Source: an uncultured bacterium (lineage in GTDB: Bacteria > Fidelibacterota > Marinisomatia > Marinisomatales > Marinisomataceae). Taken from it: 64,000 bases of DNA. The DNA is taken from NCBI GenBank assembly GCA_943841495.1, contig CALSYL010000003.1, positions 16,915-80,914 of the forward strand. The letters are read 5' to 3'. Every line of letters starts with the position of its first letter. Position 1 is the stretch's first letter. A program made the translations under genes and the position numbers. Below the pieces are notes generated by a model. It saw nothing but the letters and a program-made list of their open reading frames with translations. It was not told the origin of the DNA and searched no databases. Shown piece after piece: positions 1 to 39,231 of this stretch.

Positions 1-1452
1 CCCTTTTTCATCAAAAGCCATTACAATAACTGCTGCACCAAATTCTTTAACTATTTCAGCATGTTTTATAAACTCATCTTCTCCTTCTTTTAAGCTTATG
101 GAGTTAACAATAGGTTTACCTTGAATATTTTTTAGCCCTTCTTTTAAAACACTCCATTTAGATGAGTCTATCATAATAGGTACTTTGGATATATTTGGAT
201 CTGCAGATATAAATCTGAGAAAGGTTTCCATAGCTTTTTCAGAATCAAGCATTCCTTCATCCATATTTACATCAATAATTTGTGCACCATTGTCTATTTG
301 TTCTTTTGCAACATTAAGAGCTTTTTCATAATTATCACTTAGAATTAATTTTTTAAAAATAGAAGATCCAGTCACATTAGTACGCTCTCCTATATTGACA
401 AAGTTTATATTATCTCTAAAAATAAATGGCTCCAAGCCTGCAAATGATGTTTGATAATTAATACTAGGAACTATTCTAGGAGCTTCATTTTCTAACTTTT
501 TCTTTTATTGCCTTGATATGTCCTGGTCCTGTTCCACAACAACCGCCTACAATATTTAAATATCCATTTGATGCTAAAGCCGATATTTCTTTTGCCATAA
601 ATTCAGGGCTATCATCATATTCTCCTAATTCATTAGGTAATCCAGCATTAGGATGTGCTGAAACAAAAGTATCTGCAATTTTTGATAATTCAGCTATATA
701 ATACTTCATATCTTTAATTCCTAAAGCACAATTAATACCAATGCTTAATGGATTGCTATATTTTATTGTATGCCAAAAAGCTTCTAATGTTTGTCCAGAT
801 AAAGTTCTACCACTTTTATCTACAATTGTTACAGAGATCATAATTGGGATATCAAGATTATGATCAGTTAAATAGTTATTTATAGCAATGACTGCAGCCT
901 TACAATTCAAAGTATCAAAAATAGTTTCAATCATTAGCAGATCTACTCCACCTTTTACTAATCCATCTACTTGTTCATAATAAGTCTTATAGAGCTCATC
1001 AAAAGTAATATTTCTAAAAGATAAATCTTCAACTTTAGGAGATAGAGAAGCTGTTCTATTTGTTGGGCCAATACTTCCACAAACAAATTTTTGACTGGTA
1101 TTTTTTTTATAATATCTTTTAACAGCATTTTTTGCTAACTGAGCAGATTTAAAGTTCATTTCAAAAACATAATCTTCTAGATGATAATCTGATTGAGATA
1201 TACTATTTGCATTGAATGTATTTGTTTCAATTATGTCTGCACCAGCTTCTAAATATTTATAGTGTATATCTTCTATTAATTGAGGTCTGGTTAAGATAAT
1301 AAGTCATTATTGCCTTTCAAGCTGGATTCATAATTAGAAAATTTTTCTCCTCTATAGTCATCTTCATCAAGCTGAAATTCTTGAATCATTGTACCCATAG
1401 CACCATCTAAGATTAAAATCCTATTTTTTAATATATTTCTTATATCTTTCAT
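1..1452 (-). CDS. metH: Cobalamin-dependent methionine synthase, N-terminal part (homocysteine-binding and pterin-binding domains); runs off the window edge; two frameshifts (~1295, ~490)
   Basis: Manual translation from ATG at 1452: MKDIRNILKNRILILDGAMGTMIQ...GNNDLLS; shifted frame TRPQLIEDIH...AGADIIETNTFNA joins ORF 485..1159 (GSIGPTNRTAS, GINCALG, HPNAGLPN, GGCCGT); after the second shift FVNIGERTNVTGS...IIDVNMDEGMLD...MIDSSKW. Confidence 0.93.
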
Positions 1453-1456
1453 ATAC

Positions 1457-1482
1457 AAAAAAACCAGCTGCTAAGCTGGTTT
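1457..1482 (-). terminator. Intrinsic terminator hairpin just upstream of the metH start (riboswitch expression platform)
   Basis: Minus strand AAACCAGCT-TAGC-AGCTGGTTT followed by a T-run, ending 4 nt before the ATG. Confidence 0.75.
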
Positions 1483-1490
1483 GATTATTT

Positions 1491-1543
1491 ACCATTTTAG
1501 CATTTTTTTTAACGTCGCAGCAATATTGTTCAAATCACGACTT
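1491..1543 (-). ncRNA. SAM-II/SAM-V-like riboswitch aptamer
   Basis: Minus strand AAGUCGUGAUUUGAACAAUAUUGCUGCGACGUUAAAAAAAAUGCUAAAAUGGU: P1 GUCGU/GCGAC, loop GAUUUGAAC..UAUUGC and 3' GCUAAA match the SAM-II/V pseudoknot core; located upstream of a methionine-synthesis gene. Confidence 0.7.
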
Positions 1544-1549
1544 CTGGAG

Positions 1550-1555
1550 ATTATA
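1550..1555 (-). promoter_or_regulatory. Putative sigma-70 -10 box for the riboswitch-metH transcript
   Basis: TATAAT on the minus strand ~7 nt before the aptamer; -35 match is weak (TTATTA at 17 nt). Confidence 0.45.
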
Positions 1556-1660
1556 AGGCTATTTTTTCTAAATAATAAATGTTTTTTTTAATATTGATTT
1601 AAGACTATATTCGCAGCAGAAATGATTAAAAAGCAATATATAAAGAGTATCAACTTAAAT

Positions 1661-2380
1661 ATGTCTATAATTGACCAAATAATTCTATTACAAGATGTTG
1701 ATAATAAATTATTTGAAATCAATAAATTGCTAGGCAATCTTCCAACAAAAGTCCGAGAATTAACCGAAGAAGAAGATTCAGTTAAATTATCACTAGAAAA
1801 TAAAGAAAATGATCTAAAAGAGACCTCTGTGCTAATTAGCACAAATGAAACACTAGTCCAAACTACATTGATAAAATAAATTCATTGAAAGATAAGCTAA
1901 TTGATGGTTCTATTTCTACGAATAAAGAGTATGACGCGATGATGGAAACGATAGATTTTGAAAAAAATCTTTTAGATCAAAAAGAGCTAGAATTAATTGA
2001 GTTAATGACAAAAAAAGAAAATTTAGCAAAAGAAATTGATGAAGATAAAGCTTCCTTAGATGGAATCATTTCAGAATTAAAGTCAAAAAAAGATGATTTA
2101 AATTCTAAAATGGAAGAAGTGTCAGAAGAAAATAATGCATTAAAACTTGAGAGAGACAATTTTGCAAATGACATTCCAGAAGATATCATAGAAAAATATA
2201 TGCAAATATATAATGCTAGAAAAGGTGTAGCGTGTTGCAGAAATTTTAGATAATAACTGTGAAGGTTGTGGAGCATATATTCCTCCTCAATTAGTGAATG
2301 AAGCCCTATCTAAAGAACTAGTCAATTGTGGCACATGTAGTAGATTTTTGTATAAGTCAGAAAACAAATCAGAAAATTAG
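1661..2380 (+). CDS. Coiled-coil protein with C-terminal C4 zinc ribbon (DUF164/CT398-like); two frameshifts (~1875, ~2235)
   Basis: ORFs 1622..1879 and 1885..2253 join into one coiled-coil (LQDVDNKLFEI...KEYDAMMETID...YMQIYNARKGVA); shifted frame continues VAEILDNNCEGCGAYIPPQ...NCGTCSRFLYK to TAG at 2380. Confidence 0.85.
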
Positions 2381-2398
2381 TCATTCGTTAAGTTTTTT

Positions 2399-4326
2399 TT
2401 AATCACTCAATTGATTTGATAAGCCTAATTGTAATTCTTTAATCTCTCTTAATAATAGGTCAATCTTATTTTTCTTGATTCCATGTTTTTTAGCACCTGA
2501 GATAATATCTTCCCATGGAGACAAGTCACATCCAGTGCAAAACATGCCATATTTTTCAAAAATTTTTTCAACTTCTTCTCCAAAAATTTCAATCATACTG
2601 CTGGATGGACATTTTTTCATTTATAGTTCCAGAAAATATTGACAATTTTTCACTCTTTTTTTGTTCATATGGTCCTTGAAGGTAGTCTTAAAAATCCTGT
2701 CTTTACTTGGTCTGTATCTCTCCACCATTTTATCCAATAACCAACCCTAGCTTCATCCCAAGAAAGGTTGCCATTTAATAATAGTTTTGAAGAATATCTT
2801 CTGTTATCTCTAAACGATATTTAGTGTCGGCTTTAATTTGAGAATCTTTTTTGCTTTATTTTCAGATTGCCATTTAAAATTTCAAAATTAAATTCAAAAT
2901 TTAAATTATCCCACTTTTTACCCCAACATTTTAAGTTGACATTAATATCTTCACAGGTTTTTATATCAGGACTGTCATTGAGATAGAGAAAATAATTTTT
3001 TAATTCTTGTTTAGTAACTTTTTTTTCTTTTGTATTCCAATAGTCGCTAATCTTTAATTTATGGCCATTCTTGCTGTAATCTTCTTTAACTGTTTTTTAA
3101 AATATGCTTCTGATTATATATCAACTTTCTATCTTCCCAATATCTATTAATTTCATTATTTTCTGTATTCCAGCTATCACCAGGTATTAAGTCTATTAGT
3201 TTATTTTCTAATCCATTATTCTGTAAACCCTATTAAGATATCATCAATACTATTAGTTATGATTGATTTTAAATAATGTTCATGTTCTGGTTGCCAAAGA
3301 CGAAAGTGTGATGCAAAAGGGATTATATAATTGGCTTCATACAGCTTTGTAGCTTCAATTAATAGCTTAATTTTTCCCTCACATGCTTTTTTCATAATAT
3401 TTTTTCTTCTCTTTTAAGCTAAGGTGTTGCCAAGTAAATGGGTATCCAGAAGCTCCAGTAGAAAAAATACAAACTAACTGCATCAACAGGCTTTACATCT
3501 TCTGCGATATTAGGGTTCAATCCTGCATCATTTAGATTTAAGTACCCTATATCCATCTATATCAATTAATGTGATAGAATCATTAAAAACGCTAACAGGT
3601 TTAAAAAATTTAATCTTTATTTTTTCATGTATATTTATTTCCTGCTCAAAGCTGACTACCTTAACATTAATAAAGCCTAGCTTTTTGAGAAATTTTTGCA
3701 TTCTTTTGTTAGGAAAGTCAGGGATTAAAATAGGAGTCTTTTTATTAAACTTAATTAAAGTAGGAATATGAAAATGATCAGAATGTTCATGTGTAAATAA
3801 TAATAGAATAAGGCTTAATATCTTTTGCCTTAATGTCGGTTAATGGATATTGCCTCCATGCTCCAAGCATGGCAGGTCCCTCAATCCATGGATCAATCAA
3901 TACATTAAGTTTTTTGAGGCTTATATTTAGAGTCGCATGAGAAATTAGTTTTATTTTAATAGGCTTTTTGATGTTTTGAGTTGTGTGAGTGTTTTAGCTA
4001 TAATTTTTGATTTTTTCTTTGTTATTTTAGAGCTATCAACCCATAGAACATCATCGGTTATATTTATGTCTATTAGTGACAATATTTTGAGAGCTATTAG
4101 TACATTTGCCAGATGATTTATTAAATTTCCAATTATGAATTGGGCATAAAAAAACCTCTTCCTTTTTATCAAATTCAATAGATCCGCCCATATGTGGACA
4201 TACCGTAGATCCTAAAAAATATTTTCCATCATTTTTCAATAAAAAATAGTCCTTATCATTCAGAACAATTTTTTTTGGTAATGTAAAATTTTTTTCTTTT
4301 TTTAAATCAATGATTTTTATTTTCAT
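2399..4326 (-). CDS. Rieske [2Fe-2S] + metallo-beta-lactamase-fold CMP-N-acetylneuraminate hydroxylase (CMAH)-like protein with C-terminal DUF1858-like domain; roughly 10 frameshifts
   Basis: Rieske motifs CPHMGG and CPIHNW in ORF 4051..4326; manual frame-walking gives ISHATL..LIDPWIEGPAMLGAW, THEHSDHFHIPTL, LNLNDA, STGASGYPFT, IIPFASHF; ends with KYGMFCTGC...HGI (ORF 2399..2620). Confidence 0.8.
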
Positions 4327-4482
4327 TTAACAAATTTAGGATAAAAAATTTATTTTAAAATAATTTTCTTTTTAATTAGCCTTTAATATGATTATTATAT
4401 TTTGATAATTATAAGTAAAAAACGAACTATAATTAATTTTTAAATTTTTTTTAATAAATAAAAATGCTAAGGTGCATTTAAC

Positions 4483-5342
4483 ATGAAAATAGAACAGCTT
4501 ATATCAAAAATTTTGTCTATAAAGTCAATACCAAACTCAGAATGGATGGAAGGATTAGAAGACAGAAAATTAAAAGAACTAGAGTTTCATGACCAAGATA
4601 GAGATAAAGAGTTTAAAAAAGAATCAAAAGATGAAGGTGATTATGAAAAATATTATGGAAATAGAAAATATTATTCTACAGTGCATAGATCACAGGAATA
4701 CATTAAAAATTGGATTATAAAAGAATCAAAAGATAAGGTGTTTTTTAGATTACGCTTGCGGTGAAGGGGATTATGGTATTCTTGCTGCAGAGTCAGGTGC
4801 AACTTTATCTCTTGGTCTGGACATATCCCCTCTTTCAATTGAAAATGCCAATGAAAAAGCAAGAGAAAAGAATAGTACCTTTAGACCAAAAGGGCGGAAT
4901 TATATTTTTTCAGGGGGATTGCGAAAATACTAAATTACCTGATAACTCTATTGATACAATCATTTGTTCTGGTATGTTACATCACTTAGATAGATCATAT
5001 GCTTTTCCAGAGTTAAGAAGAATTCTAAAGCCTGGTGGAAAAATATTAGCTGCGGAAGCATTAAACTATAATCCTGCAATCAAACTTTATAGAATGCTTA
5101 CGCCTGCAATGCGTACTGATTTTGAGAAAGAACATATTCTTTCATTAAAAGATTTAAAATTTGCAAAACACTTTCTTGATGTTAAAGAAATCAAGTTTTG
5201 GCATGTTATTGGTTATGTTGGCGGAAAATTACCGTTTTTGTTTCCTATACTAGACAATATTGATAAAATACTAGAAAAAATTCCTTTTATCAATTTAATG
5301 GGTTGGCAGTTTACTTTCGTTCTACAAAAACGAGAAGATTAA
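4483..5342 (+). CDS. Class I SAM-dependent methyltransferase; frameshifted (~4745, ~4860-4910)
   Basis: Joined frames give FLDYACGEG (motif I), GLDISPLSIE, GDCENTKLPDNSIDTIICSGMLHH, ELRRILKPGG. Confidence 0.85.
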
Positions 5343-5445
5343 AATAAATTATTTAATTCTATTTAGTAAATCATAGGTGATACTTAAAAGATTCTTTTAA
5401 TTTTTTTCTTCTTAATTCAATTTCTATCCCTTATTATACCTTAAT

Positions 5446-5785
5446 GAGCTGATTGGATGATTACTCGATTTTTTCGAGAGGAAAGTCCGGGCACCGCAGA
5501 GCATAGTGCCACCTAACAGGTGGGATTCGTGAGAATATGGACAGTGCAGCAGAAAGTAGACCGCCATTTATTTGGTAAGGGTGAAACGGTGGTGTAAGAG
5601 ACCACCAGTAATAGTGGTAACATTATTAGCTGGTAAACCCCACTAGGTGCAAGATCACGTAGACCCGAGATGCTGCTCGCATCATTTGAGGGAAGGGTAG
5701 ATTGCTAGAGTTTTATAGAAATATAAAATAGAGAGGAATGATCATCGCATCAATGATGTACAAAACCCGGCTTATAAATCAGCTC
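5446..5785 (+). ncRNA. rnpB: RNase P RNA (bacterial type A)
   Basis: Conserved GAGGAAAGTCCGGGC, AGTGCAGCAGAAAG, GGGTGAAACGGTGG, GGTAAACCCC, ACAAAACCCGGCTTAT; terminal helix GAGCTGATT/AATCAGCTC. Confidence 0.97.
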
Positions 5786-5796
5786 AAAAAATTGTT

Positions 5797-6795
5797 ATGA
5801 AGAAATCAAAAATAGCAGGTATTGGATTCAATGTTCCAAATAACGTTGTAACAAATCATGATCTAGAAGACATGATGGATACAACGGACGAATGGATTAA
5901 AACAAGATCAGGAATTGAAGAAAGAAGATGGGTAGAACCAGGAACTGCAAATTCTGATTTGGCATTACCAGCATGCATAGAAGCAATCCAAAAAGCTGGC
6001 ATTACTCCAAATGAAATAGATATAATCATAGTTGGCACAGTAAGCTCAGATTATAATTTTCCTGGAATGGCACCGATTATTCAACAAAAATTAGGTATTG
6101 CTAATCATGTTCCTGCATATGATATCAGTGCAGCATGTTCAGCTTTTATTTATTTGTTAGAAATGGGCGACCAATACATTAAATCTGGAAAATATAAAAA
6201 TGTACTTTTAGTTGGTTCTGATTTGATGTCAACAATAATAGATCGTTCTCCTGAAGGAAGAGCAACAGGTGTCTTATTTGGGGATGGATCTGGTGCAGTC
6301 GTACTTCAAGAGTCCCAAGATGATAGTCAAATTTTATCAACCCATCTTTTTGCTGATGGAAAAGGAGTAGAGCATTTAGGCGCAAAAGCGCCGGGCTCTA
6401 TTTTCAATCCGCTTAGAATAGATAAGAAGATAGTAGCAGATAGAGACCATTTACCCTATCAAAATGGTAGAGAAGTTTTCAAAAATGCTGTAACAAGAAT
6501 GCCAGAAGCTATCAATGTTGCACTTGAGCATAATCATTTAAACATAGAAGATGTTTCATTGGTTATTGCTCATCAAGCAAATAAAAGAATTTTAGAGACA
6601 TGTGCTAAAAGAATGAATCTACCAATGGAAAAAATGTTTGTAAATATTCATAAATATGGAAATACAACCGCTGCTACTATTCCAATTGCTATATGCGAGG
6701 CTTTAGAGGAAAATAAATTTTCTAAAGGCGATTATATTATTTTAACAGCTTTTGGCGCAGGATATACTTGGGCATCGGCAGCTATTAAATGGTAA
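5797..6795 (+). CDS. fabH: 3-oxoacyl-ACP synthase III
   Basis: DISAACSAF (catalytic Cys), IAHQANKRI, KYGNTTAATIP, AFGAGYTW. Confidence 0.95.
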   Translation: MKKSKIAGIGFNVPNNVVTNHDLEDMMDTTDEWIKTRSGIEERRWVEPGTANSDLALPACIEAIQKAGITPNEIDIIIVGTVSSDYNFPGMAPIIQQKLGIANHVPAYDISAACSAFIYLLEMGDQYIKSGKYKNVLLVGSDLMSTIIDRSPEGRATGVLFGDGSGAVVLQESQDDSQILSTHLFADGKGVEHLGAKAPGSIFNPLRIDKKIVADRDHLPYQNGREVFKNAVTRMPEAINVALEHNHLNIEDVSLVIAHQANKRILETCAKRMNLPMEKMFVNIHKYGNTTAATIPIAICEALEENKFSKGDYIILTAFGAGYTWASAAIKW

Positions 6796-6796
6796 A

Positions 6797-9085
6797 ATGA
6801 ATAATTTTAAACAGCTTAAAGATTTTTTCTTAAATAATAGATTTCCAATACTTTGGTTTTTCCTGCTTTCATTTGCTATATCCTTAACTTTTCCAACTGG
6901 ATTTTCAATTAGATATTCTTATCAGTTAAATGATATTGCCAATGAACCAATAATTGCACCTTTTGATTTTGGAATTCTTAAAACAGATCAAAAGCTTAAA
7001 AAAGACCTAGATGAAGCAAAGAAATCAGTACCTTTTTCTTTTAGCAGAAATCAAGATTTTGTTGATAATCAAATTGCTTCCATTGACACATTTTTTATTT
7101 ATCTAAATGATATCTATAGTTCACATGAGCTATTTATTTCATCACAAGATTCACTTTATAAATATCGATATGAACCTGAATTTGAAAGTTTTCAAACTAG
7201 TTTTGTTGCTGATAGTACTACCTATGTAACGCTATACAATGAGTTCTTAAATCAATATCAGTTCCAAATTAAAAAAAATCAATGGGATCAATTGCTGGGC
7301 ATTAACGAAAGCCTGATGGAGCCTATAAATCTAGAGTTGTTTAAAAAACAAGTTAAACAAATATGTCTTAATAGATGGGCTGAAGGCATAGTCGATGAAC
7401 CATTAGAAAATATTTTGAGTGATGAAATTAGTATAGTCCAGGGTGGCGAATTGATTATTGCACCAACAAAAAACTATAATGATATAGAATCAGCTTGGAA
7501 AAAAAATAAAGAAGAAGTAAACCTGCTTTATAATAATGATTTAGATATCAAATCTATTTTGAGCTATGAGTTAATTAATGAGTTTACAAAACCAAATATC
7601 ATTTTTGACAAGGAGTTAACTGAATCAAGGCAAAAAGAACGCTTAGATAGAGTATCGCGTTTTCAAGGAACAGTACTAGCGAATGAATTAATTGTTGATA
7701 CAAATAATCGAATTACAGATTCTGTATTATTAAAATTAAAATCTTTAAGAGTTGAATCAGAAAGAAGATTAGGGTATGAGAAAGCTGCCGATAAATTTAG
7801 AGAATATTTAGGAGCCTTTTTTGTTGTTTCAATACTACTTTTTTTACTTTTTTCTTTTTTCTACATCTATAGAGGAAACTATTTTGAAAACTATAAGATT
7901 TTAGTTTTAATCGGATTTTTAATGTATTTAATTGTATTTTTTTCGTGGATAATTGTTAATTATCAATTACCTGTTTATATAATTCCTATAGCAATGTTTT
8001 CTATTCTAATGACTGTATTACTCGATACAACAGTTGCCTTGATTTCTTCCACTATCTTGATTTTATTAATTTCATTACTTATTGGTAATGATTTAGATTT
8101 TGCTATTATTCAGTTTATTATTGCTTGTATTGCAATATTTAGCGTTAGAAAGCTTCGTAAAAGAAGGCAAATTATTGCAACAATGTTAACATTAGTTTTT
8201 TGTAGTTTATTTGTATTCTTTTCTGTGATGCTTTTTAAGGGAATTGATTTCCTTGATTATAATTATTCTACTGTAGGATATTTGGCCCTAGCTAGTTTTC
8301 TTTGTCCAATTCTTTCTTTTGGCTTAGTCCCCTTATTTGAATCATTCTTTGGTATTACAACAGATTTAAGCTTAATAGAATTACTTGATTATGATCAACC
8401 GCTTCTGAAAAAACTAATGGAAGATGCACCAGGAACACATACACATAGTGTTAAAGTTGGTACATTGGCTGAGTCATGCGCTAATGCCATAGGAGCACGT
8501 GCACTGCTTTGCAGGGTAGGTTCATATTATCATGATATAGGTAAAATTAAAAAGCCTGAGTATTATGCTGAAAATCAAACGGGAGAAAATAAGCATGATT
8601 CTATTTCACCGCATATGAGTGCTAAAATATTAAAGCAGCATGTAACAGATGGACTTTCCTTAGCAGATGAATATGGGTTACCTAAAATCGTTAAAGATTT
8701 TATTGAAACACATCATGCTAAAAATAGAATGGAATTTTTCTACCAGAAAGCATTATCAAATGCTAATAATTCAGAATCTGTAGATGAAAATGAATTTAGA
8801 TATCCTGGGCCTAAACCAAATTCTAAAGAGACTGGCATTGTAATGATTGCAGAAGCAATAGAGGCACAAGCAAATTCTATTAAAAATCCTACGCTTGAAA
8901 AATTTGAAAAGATGATAGATAAAGCAATACGTAGCCGATTAGAAGATGGCCAGTTGGACGAATGCCCTTTAACAATGGCAGACTTACAAAAAATTAAAGG
9001 TAGAAGAGATGGCAAACATGGCCTTATACCAGTGCTTTCAGGGCTATATCATTCAAGACCAGAATACCCTTCAAAAGATGATTGA
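6797..9085 (+). CDS. 7TM-HD family phosphohydrolase (YqfF/PgpH-like)
   Basis: N-terminal TM, large extracellular domain, multi-TM block, then APGTHTHS, YYHDIGK, HHAKNRMEFFY, FRYPGPKP; true start probably ATG 6797 rather than the ORF-track 6752. Confidence 0.88.
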   Translation: MNNFKQLKDFFLNNRFPILWFFLLSFAISLTFPTGFSIRYSYQLNDIANEPIIAPFDFGILKTDQKLKKDLDEAKKSVPFSFSRNQDFVDNQIASIDTFFIYLNDIYSSHELFISSQDSLYKYRYEPEFESFQTSFVADSTTYVTLYNEFLNQYQFQIKKNQWDQLLGINESLMEPINLELFKKQVKQICLNRWAEGIVDEPLENILSDEISIVQGGELIIAPTKNYNDIESAWKKNKEEVNLLYNNDLDIKSILSYELINEFTKPNIIFDKELTESRQKERLDRVSRFQGTVLANELIVDTNNRITDSVLLKLKSLRVESERRLGYEKAADKFREYLGAFFVVSILLFLLFSFFYIYRGNYFENYKILVLIGFLMYLIVFFSWIIVNYQLPVYIIPIAMFSILMTVLLDTTVALISSTILILLISLLIGNDLDFAIIQFIIACIAIFSVRKLRKRRQIIATMLTLVFCSLFVFFSVMLFKGIDFLDYNYSTVGYLALASFLCPILSFGLVPLFESFFGITTDLSLIELLDYDQPLLKKLMEDAPGTHTHSVKVGTLAESCANAIGARALLCRVGSYYHDIGKIKKPEYYAENQTGENKHDSISPHMSAKILKQHVTDGLSLADEYGLPKIVKDFIETHHAKNRMEFFYQKALSNANNSESVDENEFRYPGPKPNSKETGIVMIAEAIEAQANSIKNPTLEKFEKMIDKAIRSRLEDGQLDECPLTMADLQKIKGRRDGKHGLIPVLSGLYHSRPEYPSKDD

Positions 9086-9518
9086 AATTAATATTTTTAA
9101 TAAAGAAGAAACCAATCTTAATATCAACGATTATAACCTTAGCGAGTTAGCGAATCTTGCATTAGAAGAAACATCCTATGAAAAAATAAATTTGAATTTT
9201 ATTTTTTGTAACAATCAAACATTAAATGCTTTCAAGCTAAGATACTTCAATGATGATGTTCTAACAGATATTGTAACCTTTCCAATAAAAAATGATTCAG
9301 AACTTGAAGCTGAAATATACATTAGCACTGAGATGGCAAATAGTAATGCAAAAGAATTTAAAGTATCATTAGATAATGAAATTTCACGTTTAATAGTTCA
9401 TGGAATATTACATTTAATTGGATATGATGATAGTTCAGAAGAAGAAAAAAAAGTAATGTTTAAAAAACAAGAGCAAATTATAGCAAAATATAATAAACAG
9501 GTTTGTAATGAAATTTGA
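9078..9518 (+). CDS. ybeY: rRNA maturation endoribonuclease YbeY
   Basis: TDIVTF, AEIYIS, RLIVHGILHLIGYDD; follows 7TM-HD gene; start ATG 9078. Confidence 0.9.
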   Translation: MIEINIFNKEETNLNINDYNLSELANLALEETSYEKINLNFIFCNNQTLNAFKLRYFNDDVLTDIVTFPIKNDSELEAEIYISTEMANSNAKEFKVSLDNEISRLIVHGILHLIGYDDSSEEEKKVMFKKQEQIIAKYNKQVCNEI

Positions 9519-10287
9519 ATCGTTAAAAGAGCTTATAGATATTGTAGTTACCCTAAGATCTGATAATGGTTGTGAGTGGGATAAAAAACAAACTCCAGAA
9601 TCTTTAACTCCTCATCTAATTGAAGAAACACATGAAGTAGTTGACGCAATTCTAGATAATAATTCTGAAAACTTAAAAGAAGAGTTAGGCGATTTATTAT
9701 TACACATTATTTTTCAAGTAGTTATTGCTTCAGAAAGAAATCAATTTGAACTAGATGATATTATTAAAAATATCAATAAAAAATTAACTGACCGCCACCC
9801 ACATATCTTTGATAAAAATTATAAAGGCGAGGATTCATCTAGATCAAAGAATTGGGAGCTTAATAAGAAAAAAGAAAAAAACAGAAAATCAATTTTAGAT
9901 GGGGTACCCAATTCTCTATCCTCACTTATTGTATCGCAGAGATATCAAGATAAAACTGGAGCTGTAGGTTTTGAATGGGAAAATTCCGATCAAGCAATGC
10001 TTAAAGTGGATGAAGAGCTGAATGAGTTGAAAAACGCTATTAAAAATAATGATGATAAAAATATTGAAGAAGAAATAGGAGATCTATTAACTACAGTTGT
10101 AAATATAGCTAGATTTTTTAATGTATCTGCTGAGCTTGCGCTAAAAAAAACAAATAAAAAGTTTTACAACAGGTTTCATTATATTGAGAAAGCACTTGCT
10201 AATAAAAAGCAAAATATTGAAAAGTTATCTTTAAAAGAACTCTTAAATTATTGGGAGAAAGCAAAAAGTGAAGAAAAAACAAATTAG
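9508..10287 (+). CDS. mazG: Nucleoside triphosphate pyrophosphohydrolase MazG
   Basis: LRSDNGCEWDKKQT, EELGDLLLHI, RHPHIF, second domain EEIGDLL. Confidence 0.93.
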   Translation: MKFESLKELIDIVVTLRSDNGCEWDKKQTPESLTPHLIEETHEVVDAILDNNSENLKEELGDLLLHIIFQVVIASERNQFELDDIIKNINKKLTDRHPHIFDKNYKGEDSSRSKNWELNKKKEKNRKSILDGVPNSLSSLIVSQRYQDKTGAVGFEWENSDQAMLKVDEELNELKNAIKNNDDKNIEEEIGDLLTTVVNIARFFNVSAELALKKTNKKFYNRFHYIEKALANKKQNIEKLSLKELLNYWEKAKSEEKTN

Positions 10288-10690
10288 AGGTATAACGTTT
10301 GGATCATTTGATTTATGTCATTATGGTCATGCATTAATGTTCGAAGAATGTAAACAATATTGTGATTACTTAATTGTTGGAGTTCAATCAGATCCTAGTA
10401 TTGATAGACCTGAAAAAAATTCACCTATTCAATCGCATATTGAAAGAATGGGAATAGTAAGCTCTTTAAAATTTGTTGATGAAGTAATTCCATACAATAC
10501 TGAATCTGATTTAATTAAAGTATTAAAAGAAATAAATCCAGATGTCAGAATTTTAGGGGCAGACCATGAAGGTACAAAATATACAGGACATGAACTCCCT
10601 ATAAAGTGTGTATTTAACTCAAGAGATCACGGATACTCTACGTCAGAGCTTAGAAAAAGAGTTTATAACGCTGAAAAAAAGAAAATCTAA
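10268..10690 (+). CDS. Cytidylyltransferase family protein (glycerol-3-phosphate cytidylyltransferase-like)
   Basis: FGSFDLCHYGH (HxGH), LIVGVQSD, RDHGYSTSELR. Confidence 0.85.
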   Translation: MKKKQIRGITFGSFDLCHYGHALMFEECKQYCDYLIVGVQSDPSIDRPEKNSPIQSHIERMGIVSSLKFVDEVIPYNTESDLIKVLKEINPDVRILGADHEGTKYTGHELPIKCVFNSRDHGYSTSELRKRVYNAEKKKI

Positions 10691-11269
10691 TTACCTGTAA
10701 GATAATTAAATACTATAGCAGACATTAACTTGGTATAATCTATATTCTCAATATTGATTTCATTTAATAAGCTCTTATTTTGAATTGCCAGAACTCTCAG
10801 TTTTTCTCCAACAAAAATTTGCCTAGTATTTAAATCAATATTCTGAAAATTTATTTTGTATGGATTGTCTTTCATTATTTCTGAAAGAGAATATTGACTA
10901 GGTGAATACTCAGGAAGAATTTTTTTTAAAAAAATTGAAAAAGTGTAATCAGAATTAAAATTATCAATAATCAATAATGAACCATTTAGTATATTTTGTT
11001 GAAGGCTAATAATTTGAATTTCAGATAATTTAAGATATGCATCAGAACATAAAATAATTATTGCATGATTATTAAATTCATCAACATCATCAAGGCTGAT
11101 TTGTGAGAGAAATTTCAATTTTTGAACGATCACTTAAAAAAGAGGTAAGAAAGGTGATATTGTTAATATTACATTCTCCTTTGAGCAAGATTTTATCAGA
11201 TTGAGCGTGTAGGTTTTCTAAAAGAAGCCCAATTATCAATAAAACAACTATATTTAGTTTTTTAATCAT
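10687..11269 (-). CDS. Secreted DUF4159-like protein; one frameshift (~11095)
   Basis: Signal-peptide ORF (MIKKLNIVVLL..LHAQ) joins ORF 10687..11133 (DEFNNHAIIIL..LQQNILNGSLLIIDNF..FLKKILPE), weakly resembling DUF4159. Confidence 0.45.
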
Positions 11270-30731: not shown

Positions 30732-30865
30732 CTTTTTTGATAATTATGTTCGAAGATGAGTATTGTTATAGCTATTAAAATTATATAAATTGCTAGCTTG
30801 TGAATAGTAAGAAATATTGAAACTTTTAGTCATAAATTGTGTCTAAGAAATATCTAAGGATTAAA

Positions 30866-32134
30866 ATGAAGAGAAAATTTTTATTTATATTATTACTTTG
30901 TGTAGCAAATGCCCAAACATTAAGCATTGATGAGGCAGTTAGAATTGCTCTTGAAAATAAGGCAGCAATTACTAATGCTGAAAAAGATGTTACTATTGCT
31001 AGACTAAACAGAAGCTCTTCTGCAGCATTATTGCTTCCATCTATCAGTGCAAGTAATTCTTACAGAGAAACAACATATGGTAGTTCACTGATTTCAGGTG
31101 GAGAATCATATTCTGGAGGAGTTAATTTATCTCAAAGCCTTTTTAATTTTGGAAATAGAGTCAATTCGGTTCGTCAGAGCGATAATACCTACCAGATTTC
31201 TAAGATTCAAAAAAGAGAAACAACCTCTAGAATTATTTTAAATGTATACACATTTTATTATCAGTATTTAAAAAATTCAGAACTTTTCGAAATTGCAAAA
31301 GAGGACTTATTGTTATCAAAAAAACAACTAAATCTTGTAAAGCAGCAATTTGAATTAGGCGCAGTAAGCAAGACAGACTATTTAAAAGCAACCGTTAGAT
31401 ATGGGACTGCAAAATCTACTCTTCTCAATAGAGAGCTTAACTTCAATAATTCTGTAAAAAATTTAAGAAATAGTATGGGATTGATTGGTAAAGATATTTC
31501 AATTAATCTACCAAAGAAAGTAGAAATTAACCTCATCATACCTTCTTTTGAAGAGGCTTTTCAGTTAATGTCCCAAAACAGTCCAAGTTTAAATATTTTA
31601 GATAGAAGGGTAGACTCTGCAAAAATTAGTGTTAAACAATCATGGGCTTCAAGCTTGCCAAGCTTAAGCATGAATGTGGGTTATAATGCGACTTCAGGCG
31701 ATCAAATTACAAAACAATATTTTGAGGATAATTATATTAAAAGTGCTAATTTGACCTTAAGTATTCCAATATTTAATGGTTTTAGAAAAAGAAATGATGT
31801 TAAAATTTCTAAACTACAATTATCAAAACAAAAATCATCATATAGCACTGCATTAAAAGATGCTCAAGTAGAATTACATTCGACTATTAATAGGTTAAAT
31901 AATTATGAAGAGTTAATCCCTATTCAAGAAGAAGTATTGTTATCTGCGGAGGAAGATTTGAAACTAGCACAACAAAAATATGAGTTAGGTTCAGCAAATA
32001 TATTAGAATTATTAGATGCTCAATTAGCTGTTATCCAAGCTAGCTCATCATTGGTTGGTACAAAATATGATGCTGCAATTCAATTAGCTAGTTTAGATAA
32101 TTTAATTGGTACACTTGATAGAAAATATAAATAA
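30866..32134 (+). CDS. TolC family outer-membrane efflux protein
   Basis: SD AAGGA before ATG 30866, signal peptide, two TolC repeats (FELGAVSKTD, YELGSANILELLDAQ). Confidence 0.9.
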   Translation: MKRKFLFILLLCVANAQTLSIDEAVRIALENKAAITNAEKDVTIARLNRSSSAALLLPSISASNSYRETTYGSSLISGGESYSGGVNLSQSLFNFGNRVNSVRQSDNTYQISKIQKRETTSRIILNVYTFYYQYLKNSELFEIAKEDLLLSKKQLNLVKQQFELGAVSKTDYLKATVRYGTAKSTLLNRELNFNNSVKNLRNSMGLIGKDISINLPKKVEINLIIPSFEEAFQLMSQNSPSLNILDRRVDSAKISVKQSWASSLPSLSMNVGYNATSGDQITKQYFEDNYIKSANLTLSIPIFNGFRKRNDVKISKLQLSKQKSSYSTALKDAQVELHSTINRLNNYEELIPIQEEVLLSAEEDLKLAQQKYELGSANILELLDAQLAVIQASSSLVGTKYDAAIQLASLDNLIGTLDRKYK

Positions 32135-32143
32135 GGAGTTTTT

Positions 32144-33406
32144 GTGAAAAAGTTCATTGATTTAGTTATGCAAAATAAAATAAAAGCACTTGGTGCTTTA
32201 GTAGTTACAGCTTTAGGTTTCTCTTTTTTCGGTGGAAGCAATGATGAAAGTATGCTTGAAGTATCTGTGCAAGAGGTTATCACCAAAGATTTAAGCAGCA
32301 AGGTAGTAGCTGATGGAGTATTAACTCCAGAAACTGAAGTAAAGCTTAGTGCAAATAATACTACATATATCACAGCAATTGCTGTAAAAGAAGGTGATTT
32401 TGTTAAAAAAGGGGACTTTTTAATGTCATTAGATGATCGTCAACAAAAAGCAGCTACTGAAGCTTCAAGAGCAGGTTTAGAAGCAGCTAAAGTTCAGCTT
32501 GAACAAAGAAAAGCACAGCAAGAAAGACAATCAAAGCTATATAGCCAAGGATTAATTTCAGATCAGGAAATGGAGTCAACTAATTCTTCATACGCTTCAG
32601 CATTAAGTTCTTATAATGGTGCACAATCTAGATTAATACAAGATGAAGATGCATTATCTAAATTAAGATTGATTGCTCCCCAAGACGGTACAATAACTTT
32701 TATTGATGGCGAGGTTGGAGATTTAGCTCAAGGCGGTATGTTTAATCCAAGTGTACTGTTAAAGCTATCTGATTTATCAAAGATGGAAGTGTACGTTAAT
32801 GTTAATGAGAATGATATTGCAGATATTTCATTAAATGACGTTGCATTAATTCAGGTGGATGCTTATCAAAATAAAAAATTTAAAGGAGTTGTAAAAGAGG
32901 TTGCATATGCAGCAACAACTTCTAGTGGAGGCTCTTCTCAGCAAGTAACAAATTTTCAAGTAAAAGTTCAAATGTTGGAAGTGTTAGATGGTATGCGCCC
33001 AGGAATGAGTGCCACCGTTGATATTATTACAGAAGAAAGATTAGGAGTGATTGCTATACCAATTCAAGCACTAACAACTCCTAGACCTTCTAAAAAATCT
33101 GAGGGCAAAAAACCATCAATGTCTGTAGAAGTTTCATCGGGAGGAAAAGATTGGTCTCAAATGAGAGGAAATTCTGATAAAAAAGCTAAATCAACTGTTG
33201 TATTTGTATTAAAAGAAGATAATACTGTAGAAGAACGAGTTGTTGAAGCTGGTATTGTTGGCGATAGAGATTATGAAATTCTCTCAGGGCTTGAAAAAGG
33301 TGAAAAAATTGTTACCGGAAGCTTTATTGCTATAAGTAGAGAGCTATATGATGGAGCAACAGTTAAAGTAAAAGAAAATTCCAGACCTAGTCGTAAACGT
33401 GGTTAA
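32144..33406 (+). CDS. Efflux periplasmic adaptor subunit (MacA-like)
   Basis: [41 protein letters not shown]. Confidence 0.9.
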
Positions 33407-34088
33407 AAACAAAAAAGAAATTATAGAAATACAATCTGTTTCAAAAATTTATAACCTTGGACAGACTGTTGTTAAAGCCTTAGATAATATATCATTAAGT
33501 ATTTATGAAAATGATTATATATCAATTATGGGTCCATCAGGATCAGGTAAATCAACTTTAATGAATATTATTGGATGTTTGGATGTTCCAACAAAAGGTG
33601 ATTATAAATTTAATAGTGAATTGATATCAGAAATGAATGACAATCAGCTTGCGAATATTAGAAATCAAAAAATTGGCTTTGTCTTTCAGACATTTAATCT
33701 TTTGCCAAAATTAAATGCAATGCAAAATGTTGAAGTTCCTTTGATATATTCTTCTTTAGGTAAAAAAGATAGAACTGAAAGGGTTGAAGAAGCTCTGAGT
33801 ATTGTTGGTTTACAAGATAGAATGACACATAAACCTAATGAGCTTTCAGGAGGTCAAAGACAGAGGGTTGCAATTGCTAGAGCGCTTGTCAATAAACCAT
33901 CTATTATTCTAGCTGATGAGCCGACTGGTAATCTTGATTCAAAAAGTGGAAATGATATATTAAAATTCTTTTCAAAATTGCATAAAGCTGGAAATACTAT
34001 CATTATGGTTACGCATGAAGAATCTGTTGCAAAACTTTCAAAGAGAAGAATAGATATTTTTGACGGGAAAATTGCAAGAGATGAATAG
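33399..34088 (+). CDS. ABC transporter ATP-binding protein (MacB/LolD family)
   Basis: [34 protein letters not shown]. Confidence 0.95.
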
Positions 34089-35322
34089 TTTTTTTAAAAA
34101 TATTTTAATCGGTTTATTTTCAATCAGGTCTAATATGACCAGAGTTATTTTAACCTCAACTGGCTTAACTATTGGTATTTTTACAGTTAGTTTAGTGACA
34201 GCATCAATTTCGAGTATCGACAAAGAATTTGCAAAATCCATGGAATACTATGGAAATGATAAAATATATGTAGGTACGTGGCCTTGGTCTTTTGATTTTG
34301 ATTGGTGGAAATATAGAAATCGCCCCAAAATTGATGAGTCATCTTTAGAGTATATAAATCAATACAGTGAATATATTACCGATGTAAGTATTAAAAAAAA
34401 TACTTGGACTAGAGCAAGCTATGGGAATAAAGCTTCTTGGGTTCAATTAAATGGTGTATATCCTAGTTATCAAGATATGCTTAGCGGCACAAAGATTGTT
34501 AATGGACGATTCTTTTCGCAAAATGAGTGGGACTTACAACGAAGAGTAATTATTGTAGGTGGTACAGTAAGAGATGGTTTTTTTGAAGGGGAAGATCCTA
34601 TTGGTAAAAAAATTAGACTAAATAATGTTACATTTGAAATCATTGGCGAGCTGAAAAAACAAGGGATGGGAATGGTACCAGGAGGAACTTTAGATAATTT
34701 AGTTATCATGCCTTCAACAACCTTTGAACGTATTTTGACTAGGTGGGGATTTGATGAACTAGTTCTTCAAACTAATGCTGATGAAATCCCTCAAGCAAAA
34801 GAAGAGGTAGGTATGATCATGCGTGTTGCTAGAAAAATACCCCCAGGAGATGATGATAATTTTGCTGTGAATTCTGCAGATGCTTATCAGGCTCAATTTA
34901 ATGATATGAAAAATGCTATTGCAGGGATGGGATTTTTAGTCACTGGAATTTCTTTAGTTGTATCTGCTATTGGAATTATGAATGTAATGTTTGTTTCTGT
35001 TAGAGAAAGAACTAGAGAGATTGGTTTGAGAAAAGCAATGGGCGCTACAAATTTTAATATTTTAACTCAGTTTTTAAGCGAGGCTGTCGCTATTGCAATT
35101 ATTGGTGGATCTGTTGGTATTTTACTTATACGTCTAACTGTTTTTGGTATTTCTTCTTTTCCGATTGAAAGTTTCAATGGCTCCACTCTTCCAGTAAGTT
35201 TCGATATTATTTTAGTTTTTTACACTTTTATGGTTTGTGTAGTAATTGGTGTTTTAGCTGGAATGATTCCTGCTAGAACTGCAGCAAATTTAAATCCAAT
35301 TGATGCCCTAAGAGATGAATAG
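34081..35322 (+). CDS. MacB/FtsX-like ABC permease 1
   Basis: Periplasmic core, [33 protein letters not shown]. Confidence 0.92.
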
Positions 35323-36583: not shown

Positions 36584-36642
36584 GCTTAAAGCCTTTTGCT
36601 TGCTGCAAAGTACTTAATCATCTAAATTCGTTTTAATCAATT

Positions 36643-36950
36643 ATGTCTAAAAAAAATAAAATCACAGAAGAAGAAGTAAAGAAAATTGCTAGTCTTTCAA
36701 GATTATCTTTAACTGAAGATGAACTTCAAAAGCGTACAGAGGATATGAATAATATTTTGAATTACATGGATTCATTGAATGAGATTAATACCGATAATGT
36801 AAAAGAGCTTAATAATGTTCATGATATGAATGCTTCTTTAAGATCAGATTCATCTGATGAGTCACTAAATCAACAAGATATTTTAAATAATAGTCCTAGC
36901 TCAAATGGAGATTATATTAAAGTACCTTTAACGGTTAAAAAGGAAAGCCA

Positions 36951-36954
<4 letters not shown>
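36643..36954 (+). CDS. gatC: Asp/Glu-tRNA amidotransferase subunit C
   Basis: ITEEEVKKIASLSRL, LNEINTDNV, LRSD, YIKVP. Confidence 0.9.

Positions 36955-39230
<2,276 letters not shown>

Positions 39231-39231
<1 letters not shown>

What the first reader, a model, noticed from the sequence alone, without database searches (positions are those of the whole stretch)
2399..4326. Bacterial CMP-Neu5Ac hydroxylase (CMAH)-like enzyme with an extra C-terminal DUF1858-like domain, hidden by frameshifts
Seen: three short minus-strand ORFs plus unannotated frames between them join into one ~640-aa protein. Rieske (CPHMGG/CPIHNW) is followed by SHATL..DPWIEGPAMLGAW, HEHSDH..PTL, LNLND, GASGYP and PFASHF, then a CxxC domain (YGMFCTGC..HGI). 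Established: animal CMAH is a Rieske + metallo-beta-lactamase-fold monooxygenase converting CMP-Neu5Ac to CMP-Neu5Gc, with the same motif order as I recall it (DPWLxGPAF, HxHSDH, GASGFP, PFAGYF). Inference: this is a prokaryotic CMAH homologue that may hydroxylate a nucleotide-activated nonulosonate/KDO-type sugar for surface glycans. The fused DUF1858-like domain, a family often tied to Fe-S handling, is not part of animal CMAH and might supply or repair the cluster. Automatic annotation would miss this gene.
Basis: partly seen in the sequence, partly recalled or inferred. Interest (0 to 1): 0.8.

Follow-up and report, generated by a model that had tools for sequence, protein, structure and literature searches.

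The report
Bacterial CMAH-like sugar hydroxylase, broken by errors
The broken reading frames hide one intact 637-residue bacterial relative of the animal enzyme that makes the sialic acid Neu5Gc; the breaks look like sequencing errors, and related genes sit mostly inside operons that build sialic-acid-like surface sugars, so its untested function can now be tested.

Summary
Window 2399-4326 (minus strand) encodes one protein. Removing 14 extra bases gives a 1914-nt ORF identical to a 637-aa protein found intact on 17 metagenome contigs. The frameshifts belong to a local patch (2237-4875) of 20 insertions, with no deletions or substitutions. The patch also covers spacers and neighbouring genes, so I read it as an assembly artefact, not a pseudogene.

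The protein has a Rieske [2Fe-2S] domain, a metallo-beta-lactamase-fold oxygenase domain, a further C-terminal region shared with CMAH, and a true DUF1858 CxxC domain. It aligns with authentic vertebrate CMAH over CMAH's whole length (hhalign probability 100%, E 4e-43). It nevertheless falls in a sister clade, in which the DUF1858 fusion is general (25 of 25 aligned members).

Of 38 dereplicated loci, 23 have a NeuB-type synthase within 10 kb and 28 have some nonulosonate-pathway gene. A 70%-identical relative heads such an operon. The likely role is O2-dependent hydroxylation of an activated nonulosonic acid.

The host is a Marinimicrobia (SAR406) bacterium with no such genes in this window. 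Bacterial CMAH-like sequences are already known in the literature, but their activity is unconfirmed.

The parts
2399..4326 (-). Coding region of the 637-aa Rieske / MBL-fold / DUF1858 protein. In this window it carries 14 extra bases at 13 sites.
   Evidence: Removing the 14 bases gives an ORF identical to P0001.
4026..4326 (-). Rieske [2Fe-2S] domain, aa 1-100. The cluster ligands are C43, H45 (4192-4200) and C61, H64 (4135-4146).
   Evidence: Pfam PF00355, E 2e-10. The ligands are invariant in 34 bacterial and animal sequences.
3285..3963 (-). Metallo-beta-lactamase-fold catalytic core, aa 121-345. It holds D144-P-W, H178-E-H-S-D-H183 (3774-3791), D248 (3579-3581) and D265 (3527-3529), plus the GASGYP and PFASHF motifs.
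   Evidence: Pfam Lactamase_B_2/B_3. Residues shared with vertebrate CMAH. Foldseek hits to MBL-fold proteins including the diiron monooxygenases FrsH and CmlA.
2673..3284 (-). C-terminal alpha/beta region, aa 346-547. It has no Pfam family but is shared with CMAH, and ends in the LSWDEARVGYW motif.
   Evidence: The hhalign alignment runs to P0001 residue 547 and CMAH residue 562 of 579. The AF2 model is confident here.
2429..2627 (-). DUF1858 domain, aa 563-628, with invariant C592-x-x-C595 (2528-2539) and H610 (2483-2485). Animal CMAH lacks it.
   Evidence: Profile A3 against PDB: 2k53 E 1e-13, 2k5e E 5e-9. TIGR03980 E 1e-9. Fused in 25 of 25 relatives.
2237..4875 (.). Insertion-only patch of 20 extra bases, about 1 per 132 nt. 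There are no deletions, and no substitutions against four independent metagenome contigs. It covers the end of the CdsZ-like gene, this gene, the 4327-4482 spacer and the methyltransferase gene.
   Evidence: About 58 substitutions would be expected over the substitution-free tract 2267-5456 from the flank rate; none is seen. On the + strand 9 of the 20 insertions are G and none is C (P about 7e-4).
4483..5342 (+). Divergently transcribed class I SAM-dependent methyltransferase (285 aa when intact), broken here by insertions at 4740 and 4875. It is a candidate partner in this lineage only.
   Evidence: Methyltransferase genes also flank the homologue in Brevibacillus, Paenibacillus, L017 and L019. 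Only 3 of 130 nearest neighbours family-wide are class I methyltransferases.

Best explanation
Window 2399-4326 (minus strand) is an intact gene in nature. In this particular sequence it was corrupted by insertion-type sequencing or assembly errors.

It encodes a 637-aa, three-module oxygenase of a Marinimicrobia (SAR406) bacterium. An N-terminal Rieske [2Fe-2S] domain passes single electrons to a non-heme iron site in a metallo-beta-lactamase-fold domain. That site is built from the HxHxDH motif plus conserved aspartates. There O2 is activated to hydroxylate an unactivated C-H bond. A C-terminal DUF1858 domain with an invariant CxxC...H is added to this CMAH-type core.

The protein belongs to a rare bacterial sister clade of animal CMP-Neu5Ac hydroxylase. 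Most members are encoded inside legionaminic-, pseudaminic- or neuraminic-acid-type (nonulosonate) operons. The most likely reaction is therefore hydroxylation of an N-acyl group of a (CMP-)activated nonulosonic acid destined for a surface glycan. In some lineages, including this one, O-methylation by a neighbouring methyltransferase may follow.

Shown here: the gene structure, domain content, homology, conserved ligands and gene-context statistics. Inferred: oxygenase chemistry, substrate, regiochemistry and the role of DUF1858. For DUF1858 my best guess is a built-in redox or metal-handling module standing in for the cytochrome b5 system that animal CMAH needs.
For: Gene and artefact
- Against L001 there are 2183 of 2200 identities, 17 gaps, all extra bases in the window, and no mismatch.
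- The same 20 insertions appear against all four contigs that reach them, and the flanks carry substitutions but almost no indels.
- The repaired ORF equals P0001, which is intact on 17 contigs.
- The rest of the window has normal long ORFs.

Homology
- Rieske plus MBL Pfam hits.
- BLASTP to dog CMAH gives E 3e-23, colinear over residues 3-535 against 19-550.
- hhalign of 25 bacterial against 10 vertebrate sequences gives probability 100%, E 3.9e-43.
- The Rieske ligands, D144, H178/H180/D182/H183, D248 and D265 are invariant across both clades.
- The AF2 model has pLDDT 88.5 and pTM 0.86. Its MBL-fold neighbours include the diiron monooxygenases FrsH and CmlA.

DUF1858
-. The family also has CxxU selenoprotein forms, which suggests a redox-active motif (PMC9312934).

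Context
- NeuB|X|Epimerase_2|CTP_transf_3 in L007.
- Full 5,7-diamino-nonulosonate operons around X in L018 and L009.
- The 70%-identical relative in L023 heads X-UDPG_DH-GT2-DegT-DegT-NeuB-SDR-SDR-NeuB-CTP_transf_3-HAD.
- 23 of 38 dereplicated loci have NeuB within 10 kb, and 28 of 38 have some nonulosonate-pathway gene.
- An unbiased Pfam count of the 130 nearest neighbours is led by Polysacc_synt_2/Epimerase, NeuB, Epimerase_2, CTP_transf_3 and DegT.

Host: PyrG is 82% identical to named Marinimicrobia proteins.
Against: - No NeuB-type synthase or nonulosonate cytidylyltransferase lies in the 64-kb window; only kdsB and kdsA are present. None lies within 10 kb in the same-species contigs L001-L004.
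- 10 of 38 loci show no nonulosonate genes in the flank available.
- The protein is in the sister clade of CMAH, not in CMAH proper, so its substrate and regiochemistry may differ.
- Several residues conserved within each clade differ between them: E179 against M, H346 against D, N264 against V.
- No activity of any bacterial CMAH-like protein has been reported (PMC6724515).
- No reads are available, so the artefact reading of the insertions rests on their pattern alone.
- The CxxC loop is the least confident part of the model (residues 593-597).
Confidence: 0.7

Rival explanations
1. The gene is a real, decaying pseudogene in this strain, and the insertions are true mutations.
For: Thirteen frame changes would abolish the product. 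No reads are available to exclude it.
Against: - There are 20 insertions, no deletions and no substitutions in 2.6 kb, where about 58 substitutions would be expected from the flanks over the substitution-free tract.
- The patch also hits the spacer and two neighbouring genes.
- 9 of the 20 inserted bases are G on one strand and none is C. That looks like read chemistry, not mutation, and bacterial decay is biased towards deletion (general knowledge).
Confidence: 0.08
2. The family works in nonulosonate pathways but does not make an N-glycolyl group. It could oxidise another position, act on a pre-activation intermediate, or perform a different O2-dependent reaction such as desaturation or N-oxygenation.
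For: - It is in the sister clade of CMAH, with clade-specific residues near the metal motifs.
- Most host operons are of the 5,7-diamino-9-deoxy (Leg/Pse) type rather than the Neu5Ac type.
- MBL-fold oxygenases such as CmlA and FrsH hydroxylate quite different substrates.
Against: - There is full-length colinearity with CMAH, including the C-terminal region that no other MBL family shares.
- N-acetyltransferase genes (Hexapep, GNAT) co-occur and would supply the N-acetyl group.
- An N-glycolyl legionaminic acid has been suspected in a bacterium by mass (PMC5378307).
Confidence: 0.2
3. In this Marinimicrobia lineage the enzyme has left sugar chemistry. Together with the adjacent SAM methyltransferase(s) it hydroxylates and then O-methylates some other metabolite, such as a lipid, quinone or small molecule.
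For: - The only conserved functional neighbours here are methyltransferases: class I in the window and L001-L004, and two FkbM-type genes in operon in the 65% relative L019.
- The methyltransferase's best models are UbiE/MenG-like, though far below cut-off.
- No nonulosonate genes lie nearby.
Against: - The 70%-identical relative L023 sits at the head of a nonulosonate operon.
- The next subclades (P0042 in L017, and the P0020 contig) lie in glycan clusters.
- A GT2 gene and a UDP-sugar dehydrogenase gene lie about 8-10 kb away in the same species (L002).
Confidence: 0.12
4. It is an ordinary metallo-beta-lactamase-fold hydrolase (UlaG- or NAPE-PLD-like) that happens to carry extra domains.
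For: The best Foldseek hits by E-value are hydrolases (NAPE-PLD, UlaG).
Against: - Those hits cover only the MBL core (TM normalised to the query is 0.33 or less).
- An invariant Rieske cluster has no role in hydrolysis.
- Homology to CMAH spans about 530 residues.
Confidence: 0.02

Closest known systems
Vertebrate CMP-N-acetylneuraminate monooxygenase (CMAH, EC 1.14.18.2)
   Same: Rieske domain followed by an MBL-fold domain and the same unnamed C-terminal region, colinear over about 530 residues. The Rieske ligands, DPW, HxHxDH, D248, D265 and the GASG[YF]P and PFA motifs are shared. Both are linked to nine-carbon acidic sugars.
   Different: Only 22% identity, and a sister clade rather than an orthologue. 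It has an extra DUF1858 CxxC domain. Clade-specific residues differ: HEHSDH against HMHSDH, H346 against D371. The host operons are mostly of the legionaminic/pseudaminic type. Animal CMAH takes electrons from cytochrome b5 and its reductase (PMC4819959); no such partner is evident here.
Prokaryotic and algal CMAH-type proteins without DUF1858 (for example P0114-P0116 and P0448; Ostreococcus and cyanobacterial homologues in Simakov 2015 and Peri 2018)
   Same: Rieske plus MBL architecture in microbes, with unconfirmed activity (PMC6724515).
   Different: They are closer to animal CMAH than to this protein: P0115 against dog CMAH gives 181 bits, against P0001 130 bits. They carry the GWWL, HNHPDH and FAGGASGFP motifs and are about 520-590 aa with no DUF1858. 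Some end in a short CxxC tail instead.
MBL-fold diiron beta-hydroxylases CmlA (4jo0) and FrsH (8a90)
   Same: An MBL fold used for O2 activation and C-H hydroxylation. They are the nearest solved oxygenases by sequence (E 7e-4 for residues 122-232) and by fold.
   Different: They have no Rieske domain and no DUF1858, and act on carrier-protein-bound amino acids. Similarity is limited to the MBL core.
DUF1858 / TIGR03980 'hybrid cluster protein-associated redox disulfide domain' (solved: 2k53, 2k5e)
   Same: The C-terminal 65 residues match, with the CxxC and HG aligned.
   Different: Those are small stand-alone proteins of unknown function, whereas here the domain is fused to an oxygenase.
NamH, the mycobacterial UDP-MurNAc hydroxylase (from my own knowledge; not tested here)
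   Same: A bacterial Rieske-dependent conversion of an N-acetyl to an N-glycolyl group on a nucleotide sugar. This is the reaction type proposed here.
   Different: As far as I recall, NamH is a classical Rieske oxygenase rather than an MBL-fold enzyme, and it acts on a different substrate.

Membership tests
CMAH superfamily (Rieske + MBL-fold monooxygenases) | Rieske CxH...CxxH cluster-binding motif at the N-terminus | tested here: met
   C43, H45, C61 and H64 are invariant in 34 sequences. Pfam Rieske E 2e-10.
CMAH superfamily (Rieske + MBL-fold monooxygenases) | MBL-fold domain with HxHxDH and downstream Asp ligands | tested here: met
   H178, H180, D182, H183, D248 and D265 are invariant and shared with vertebrate CMAH. 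Pfam Lactamase_B_2/B_3. Foldseek MBL hits.
CMAH superfamily (Rieske + MBL-fold monooxygenases) | Full-length colinear homology to authentic CMAH, including the C-terminal region that has no Pfam family | tested here: met
   BLASTP E 3e-23 over 551 residues. hhalign probability 100%, E 3.9e-43, 496 columns, reaching CMAH residue 562 of 579.
CMAH proper (orthologues of EC 1.14.18.2) | Branches within the clade that holds animal CMAH | tested here: not met
   In a neighbour-joining tree the 25 DUF1858-bearing proteins form a sister clade, while P0114-P0116 group with the animals. This is a crude distance tree; a maximum-likelihood analysis has not been done.
CMAH proper (orthologues of EC 1.14.18.2) | Two-module architecture with no further domain | tested here: not met
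   About 90 extra C-terminal residues form a DUF1858 domain.
CMAH proper (orthologues of EC 1.14.18.2) | Converts CMP-Neu5Ac to CMP-Neu5Gc using cytochrome b5 and its reductase | not testable with these tools
   This needs enzyme assays. No bacterial CMAH-like activity has been confirmed in the literature (PMC6724515).
Nonulosonate (NulO) biosynthesis cluster component | Encoded next to NeuB-type synthase, CMP-transferase and related pathway genes | tested here: inconclusive
   Met for the family: NeuB within 10 kb in 23 of 38 loci and some pathway gene in 28 of 38, including the 70% relative L023. Not met for this window or for the same-species contigs L001-L004.
DUF1858 (PF08984) | Match to the family model or to solved members, with a conserved CxxC | tested here: met
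   As a single sequence it is below Pfam's gathering score (18.4 against 32.2 bits). The family profile hits 2k53 at E 1.2e-13 and 2k5e at E 4.7e-9. C592, C595 and H610 are invariant.
Classical Rieske non-heme iron oxygenases (alpha subunits) | Rieske domain followed by the classical mononuclear-iron catalytic domain (2-His-1-carboxylate) | tested here: not met
   The catalytic domain is MBL-fold. PDB hits to classical Rieske oxygenases cover only the Rieske part.

The most novel reading that the evidence does not exclude
This DUF1858-bearing clade could be the long-sought bacterial enzyme that makes N-glycolyl (and, with neighbouring methyltransferases, O-methyl-glycolyl) legionaminic, pseudaminic or neuraminic acids. 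If so, some environmental and flagellated bacteria would display Neu5Gc-like epitopes made de novo. The fused CxxC domain would act as a self-contained electron-entry or iron-loading module that makes the enzyme independent of cytochrome b5.
Probability: 0.3. Interest if true: 0.7.

Novelty: new variant of a known kind. Interest (0 to 1): 0.5.

Why it matters
Reviews state that no bacterium has been shown to make N-glycolyl sialic acids, and that bacterial CMAH-like sequences have unconfirmed activity (PMC6724515). An N-glycolyl legionaminic acid has only been suspected from mass data (PMC5378307).

This analysis shows a distinct clade with a fixed extra redox-type domain, and most of its members sit inside nonulosonate operons. 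That turns a vague homology into a concrete experiment with defined candidate substrates and culturable carriers (Brevibacillus, Paenibacillus).

A soluble bacterial homologue could also give the first structure and mechanism for the CMAH class. A 2016 review reported no CMAH structure (PMC4819959), and I found no full-length analogue in the PDB copy searched here.

For genome annotation, the case is a reminder that a run of frameshifts in one stretch can be a local assembly fault and not gene decay.

Tried and rejected
- **Pseudogene reading:** rejected on the pattern of insertions only, no substitutions, and spread across spacers and neighbouring genes.
- **UlaG-like hydrolase:** rejected.
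- **DUF1858 as a separate gene:** rejected. The stop codon in the window comes from the frameshifts, and the domain is fused in 25 of 25 relatives. Two representatives (P0400, P0401) end just before the domain, but I cannot tell whether they are truncated.
- **A general hydroxylase-methyltransferase pair:** this was suggested by the first ten contexts. The unbiased neighbour count weakened it, with class I methyltransferases being only 3 of 130 neighbours. I keep it as a lineage-specific feature.
- **A 'TylF-MBL fusion' (P0030):** rejected as a miscall on a 3x-coverage long-read contig with a garbled linker.
- **Look-up of a window protein to find the source record:** nothing on record.
- **Promoter and terminator scan:** no better than shuffles in this AT-rich DNA.
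- **Viral structure library:** no full-length analogue.
- **Supplement of Peri et al.:** not held, so I could not check which bacterial clade they listed.
Full report
**What is in the sequence**

The pieces are about a dozen short ORFs, not three. A stitched translation scores as Rieske plus metallo-beta-lactamase (MBL) fold in Pfam. The last 73-residue ORF scores weakly as DUF1858 and better against TIGR03980, a CxxC 'redox disulfide' domain.

A protein search found intact 637-residue relatives covering 100% of the stitched query. The closest, P0001, lies on 17 metagenome contigs. Four of them (L001-L004) share the window's gene order: fabH, RNase P RNA, a divergent methyltransferase, this gene, a convergent CdsZ-like zinc-ribbon gene, then metH.

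**The frameshifts**

Aligned to L001, the 2.2 kb around the gene shows 2183 of 2200 identities. There are 17 gaps, all extra bases in the window, and not one mismatch.

Against all four contigs the picture is the same:
- Between 2237 and 4875 the window carries 20 extra bases, with no deletions.
- There are no substitutions between 2267 and 5456. From the flank rate of 1.8% about 58 would be expected there.
- The flanks carry 1-2.4% substitutions and almost no indels.

The insertions also fall in the 4327-4482 spacer, in the methyltransferase gene (4740, 4875) and at the end of the zinc-ribbon gene (2237). Twelve of the 20 duplicate a neighbouring base. Nine are G on the plus strand and none is C (P about 7e-4). 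The remaining 59 kb of the window has normal, tightly packed long ORFs.

Deleting the 14 extra bases inside the gene gives a 1914-nt ORF that translates exactly to P0001. The stop codon that seemed to separate the DUF1858 part comes from the frameshifts.

I conclude that this is a local stretch of poor or patched assembly. It may have been built from a few error-prone long reads of a slightly different strain. It is not gene decay. Without reads this stays an inference from pattern.

**What the protein is**

Pfam on the intact protein gives:

| Residues | Match | Score |
|---|---|---|
| 17-80 | Rieske | E 2e-10 |
| 124-241 | Lactamase_B_2/B_3 | E 1e-5 |
| 564-613 | DUF1858 | 18 bits, below the 32-bit cut-off |

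A profile of the last 90 residues of 24 family members hits the two solved DUF1858 proteins, 2k53 (E 1.2e-13) and 2k5e (E 4.7e-9). The CxxC and the HG are aligned, so membership is real.

In an alignment of 25 diverse relatives (31-79% identity) these residues are invariant:
- the Rieske ligands C43, H45, C61 and H64;
- D144-P-W;
- H178, H180, D182 and H183;
- D248 and D265;
- C592, C595 and H610.

To compare with the animal enzyme I used a mouse CMAH sequence recalled from memory only as bait. It returned database proteins named CMAH from many vertebrates, the best 96% identical to the bait. All tests used those authentic sequences.
- P0001 against dog CMAH gives BLASTP E 3e-23, 22% identity, colinear over residues 3-535 against 19-550.
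- The profile-profile comparison gives probability 100%, E 3.9e-43 over 496 columns, reaching CMAH residue 562 of 579.
- The Rieske ligands and all candidate iron ligands are shared.

An AlphaFold2 model is confident (pLDDT 88.5, pTM 0.86). The CxxC loop (593-597) is one of its two least certain segments.

Nothing solved resembles the whole protein. Foldseek finds only MBL cores, among them the diiron monooxygenases FrsH and CmlA. The viral structure library holds no analogue.

**Where it sits in the family**

In a distance tree the vertebrate enzymes group with a set of 520-570-residue marine microbial proteins (P0114-P0116). Those proteins lack DUF1858 and share the animal-type motifs. The 25 DUF1858-bearing proteins form the sister clade. 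P0115 scores 181 bits against dog CMAH but 130 bits against P0001.

A full scan of 1.84 billion cluster representatives found 567 proteins at E 1e-30 or better. Only about 52 are full-length representatives that run through the DUF1858 positions. Below roughly 275 bits the hits are CMAH-type proteins that stop before it. So this is a small clade with a fixed extra domain. It is a relative of CMAH, not CMAH itself.

**What it probably does**

Gene context gives the strongest functional evidence.
- In a MAG (L007) the homologue lies between NeuB and Epimerase_2/CTP_transf_3.
- In a Tara contig (L018) and a Bacteroidetes MAG (L009) it sits inside complete operons of the 5,7-diamino-nonulosonate type. 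These hold DegT, hexapeptide acetyltransferase, NeuB, hydrolysing 2-epimerase, a PtmE-like CBS-nucleotidyltransferase, a MocA oxidoreductase and a cytidylyltransferase.
- I fetched 80 further metagenome loci and dereplicated at 80% identity. Of 38 loci with at least 4 kb of flank, 23 have a NeuB-family gene within 10 kb. Five more have other pathway genes.
- An unbiased Pfam count over the 130 nearest neighbours is led by Polysacc_synt_2/Epimerase (9-11), NeuB (8), Epimerase_2 (8), CTP_transf_3 (7), DegT (6), GNAT (5), CBS-nucleotidyltransferase (4) and Hexapep (4).
- A 70%-identical relative of the window protein (L023) heads the operon X-UDPG_DH-GT2-DegT-DegT-NeuB-SDR-SDR-NeuB-CTP_transf_3-HAD.

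The window itself has no such genes. It has only kdsB-pyrG-kdsA, 32 kb away. In the same species a GT2 gene and a UDP-sugar dehydrogenase gene follow the metH-metF-metK-ahcY block about 8-10 kb from the gene, outside the window.

Methyltransferase genes flank the homologue in this lineage, in its 65% relative (two FkbM-type genes in operon), in Brevibacillus next to flagellar genes and in Paenibacillus. This is not a family-wide rule.

**Mechanism proposed**

By homology with CMAH, an outside donor reduces the Rieske cluster. The cluster feeds the iron site of the MBL-fold domain, where O2 is activated and a C-H bond is hydroxylated. The most likely target is the methyl of an N-acetyl group on a CMP-activated nonulosonate. 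All of this is inferred.

Animal CMAH depends on NADH, cytochrome b5 and its reductase (PMC4819959). No conserved reductase or ferredoxin gene appears next to the bacterial genes. The fixed DUF1858 module has an invariant CxxC...H, and the DUF1858 family is known to include CxxU selenoprotein forms (PMC9312934). It is therefore my best candidate for an electron-entry or iron-handling module.

**Comparison with what is known**

- CMAH homologues in two green algae and about 60 prokaryotes, including the FCB group, have been reported (Simakov 2015, PMC4729200; Peri 2018, PMC5767959).
- A 2019 review states that CMAH-like sequences occur in some bacterial genomes, that their activity is unconfirmed, and that no Neu5Gc-producing bacterium is known (PMC6724515).
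- An N-glycolyl legionaminic acid was proposed from mass data only in Tannerella forsythia UB4 and called undescribed in bacteria (PMC5378307).
- Intact copies of this protein are already labelled automatically: 'CMP-N-acetylneuraminate monooxygenase' by IMG and 'Rieske 2Fe-2S domain-containing protein' by NCBI.

In the library I could search I found no description of three things: the separate clade, its fixed DUF1858 fusion, and its strong residence in nonulosonate operons.

**Host and verdict**

PyrG in the window is 82% identical to proteins named Candidatus Marinimicrobia/Neomarinimicrobiota, and a 100% identical copy exists in metagenome data held at ENA. The window has 30.6% G+C.

The 'hidden by frameshifts' aspect is an artefact. 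The gene is a new variant of a known kind and is of moderate interest, because it makes an open question in bacterial glycobiology directly testable.

Noticed in passing
window 1476-1551 (-): A SAM-II (SAM_alpha) riboswitch, 37.1 bits against a gathering score of 36, lies directly upstream of the metH start codon (window 1452, minus strand). This suggests SAM-controlled methionine synthase in a Marinimicrobia bacterium, although the Rfam family is named for alpha-proteobacteria.
   Followed up: partly
window 5445-5790 (+): A bacterial class A RNase P RNA (266 bits) lies between the methyltransferase gene and fabH.
   Followed up: no
window 2267-5456: There are no substitutions against four metagenome contigs, while both flanks differ by 1-2.4% and about 58 substitutions would be expected. 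The tract nearly coincides with the insertion-rich patch. Either the assembly is chimeric here or the hydroxylase-methyltransferase pair swept recently through the population.
   Followed up: partly
window 496, 1294, 1650, 1868 (also 5542, 9339/9342, 11106): Further single-base indels against the metagenome contigs break metH and the CdsZ-like gene (1661-2380). The first 5 kb of the window is generally of lower quality than the rest.
   Followed up: partly
L004 6672-7391 against L001 10651-11370: The CdsZ-like zinc-ribbon gene is 7.6% diverged between two contigs whose neighbouring genes are identical. This hints at local recombination.
   Followed up: no
window 30839-40058 (+): A TolC/MacA/MacB-like efflux operon (30839-36583) is followed by kdsB (36951-37634), pyrG (37624-39231) and kdsA (39231-40058). 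The KDO genes show that the host makes a KDO-containing lipopolysaccharide-type envelope.
   Followed up: partly
proteins P0115, P0116, P0448 (relatives, not in the window): Microbial CMAH-type proteins that lack DUF1858 end in a short CxxC tail (CGSCEALNQ, CNSCDKLNQ, CNICEKIIQ). A C-terminal cysteine pair may matter across both clades.
   Followed up: no
proteins P0028, P0031, P0044 (729-779 aa relatives): Some family members carry an N-terminal extension of about 150 residues in front of the Rieske domain. Precomputed Pfam hits to an integrase-type Arm DNA-binding domain (PF13356) are listed for P0031, P0036 and P0038, but not for P0028 or P0044. This could be a real fusion or a gene-calling run-on.
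   Followed up: no
L005 (Brevibacillus parabrevis) 1-10766: The homologue and a methyltransferase gene sit beside fliD/fliS/fliT/flaG, two MocA oxidoreductase genes and a GDSL esterase gene. This looks like a flagellin glycosylation island in a culturable organism, which makes it useful for experiments.
   Followed up: partly
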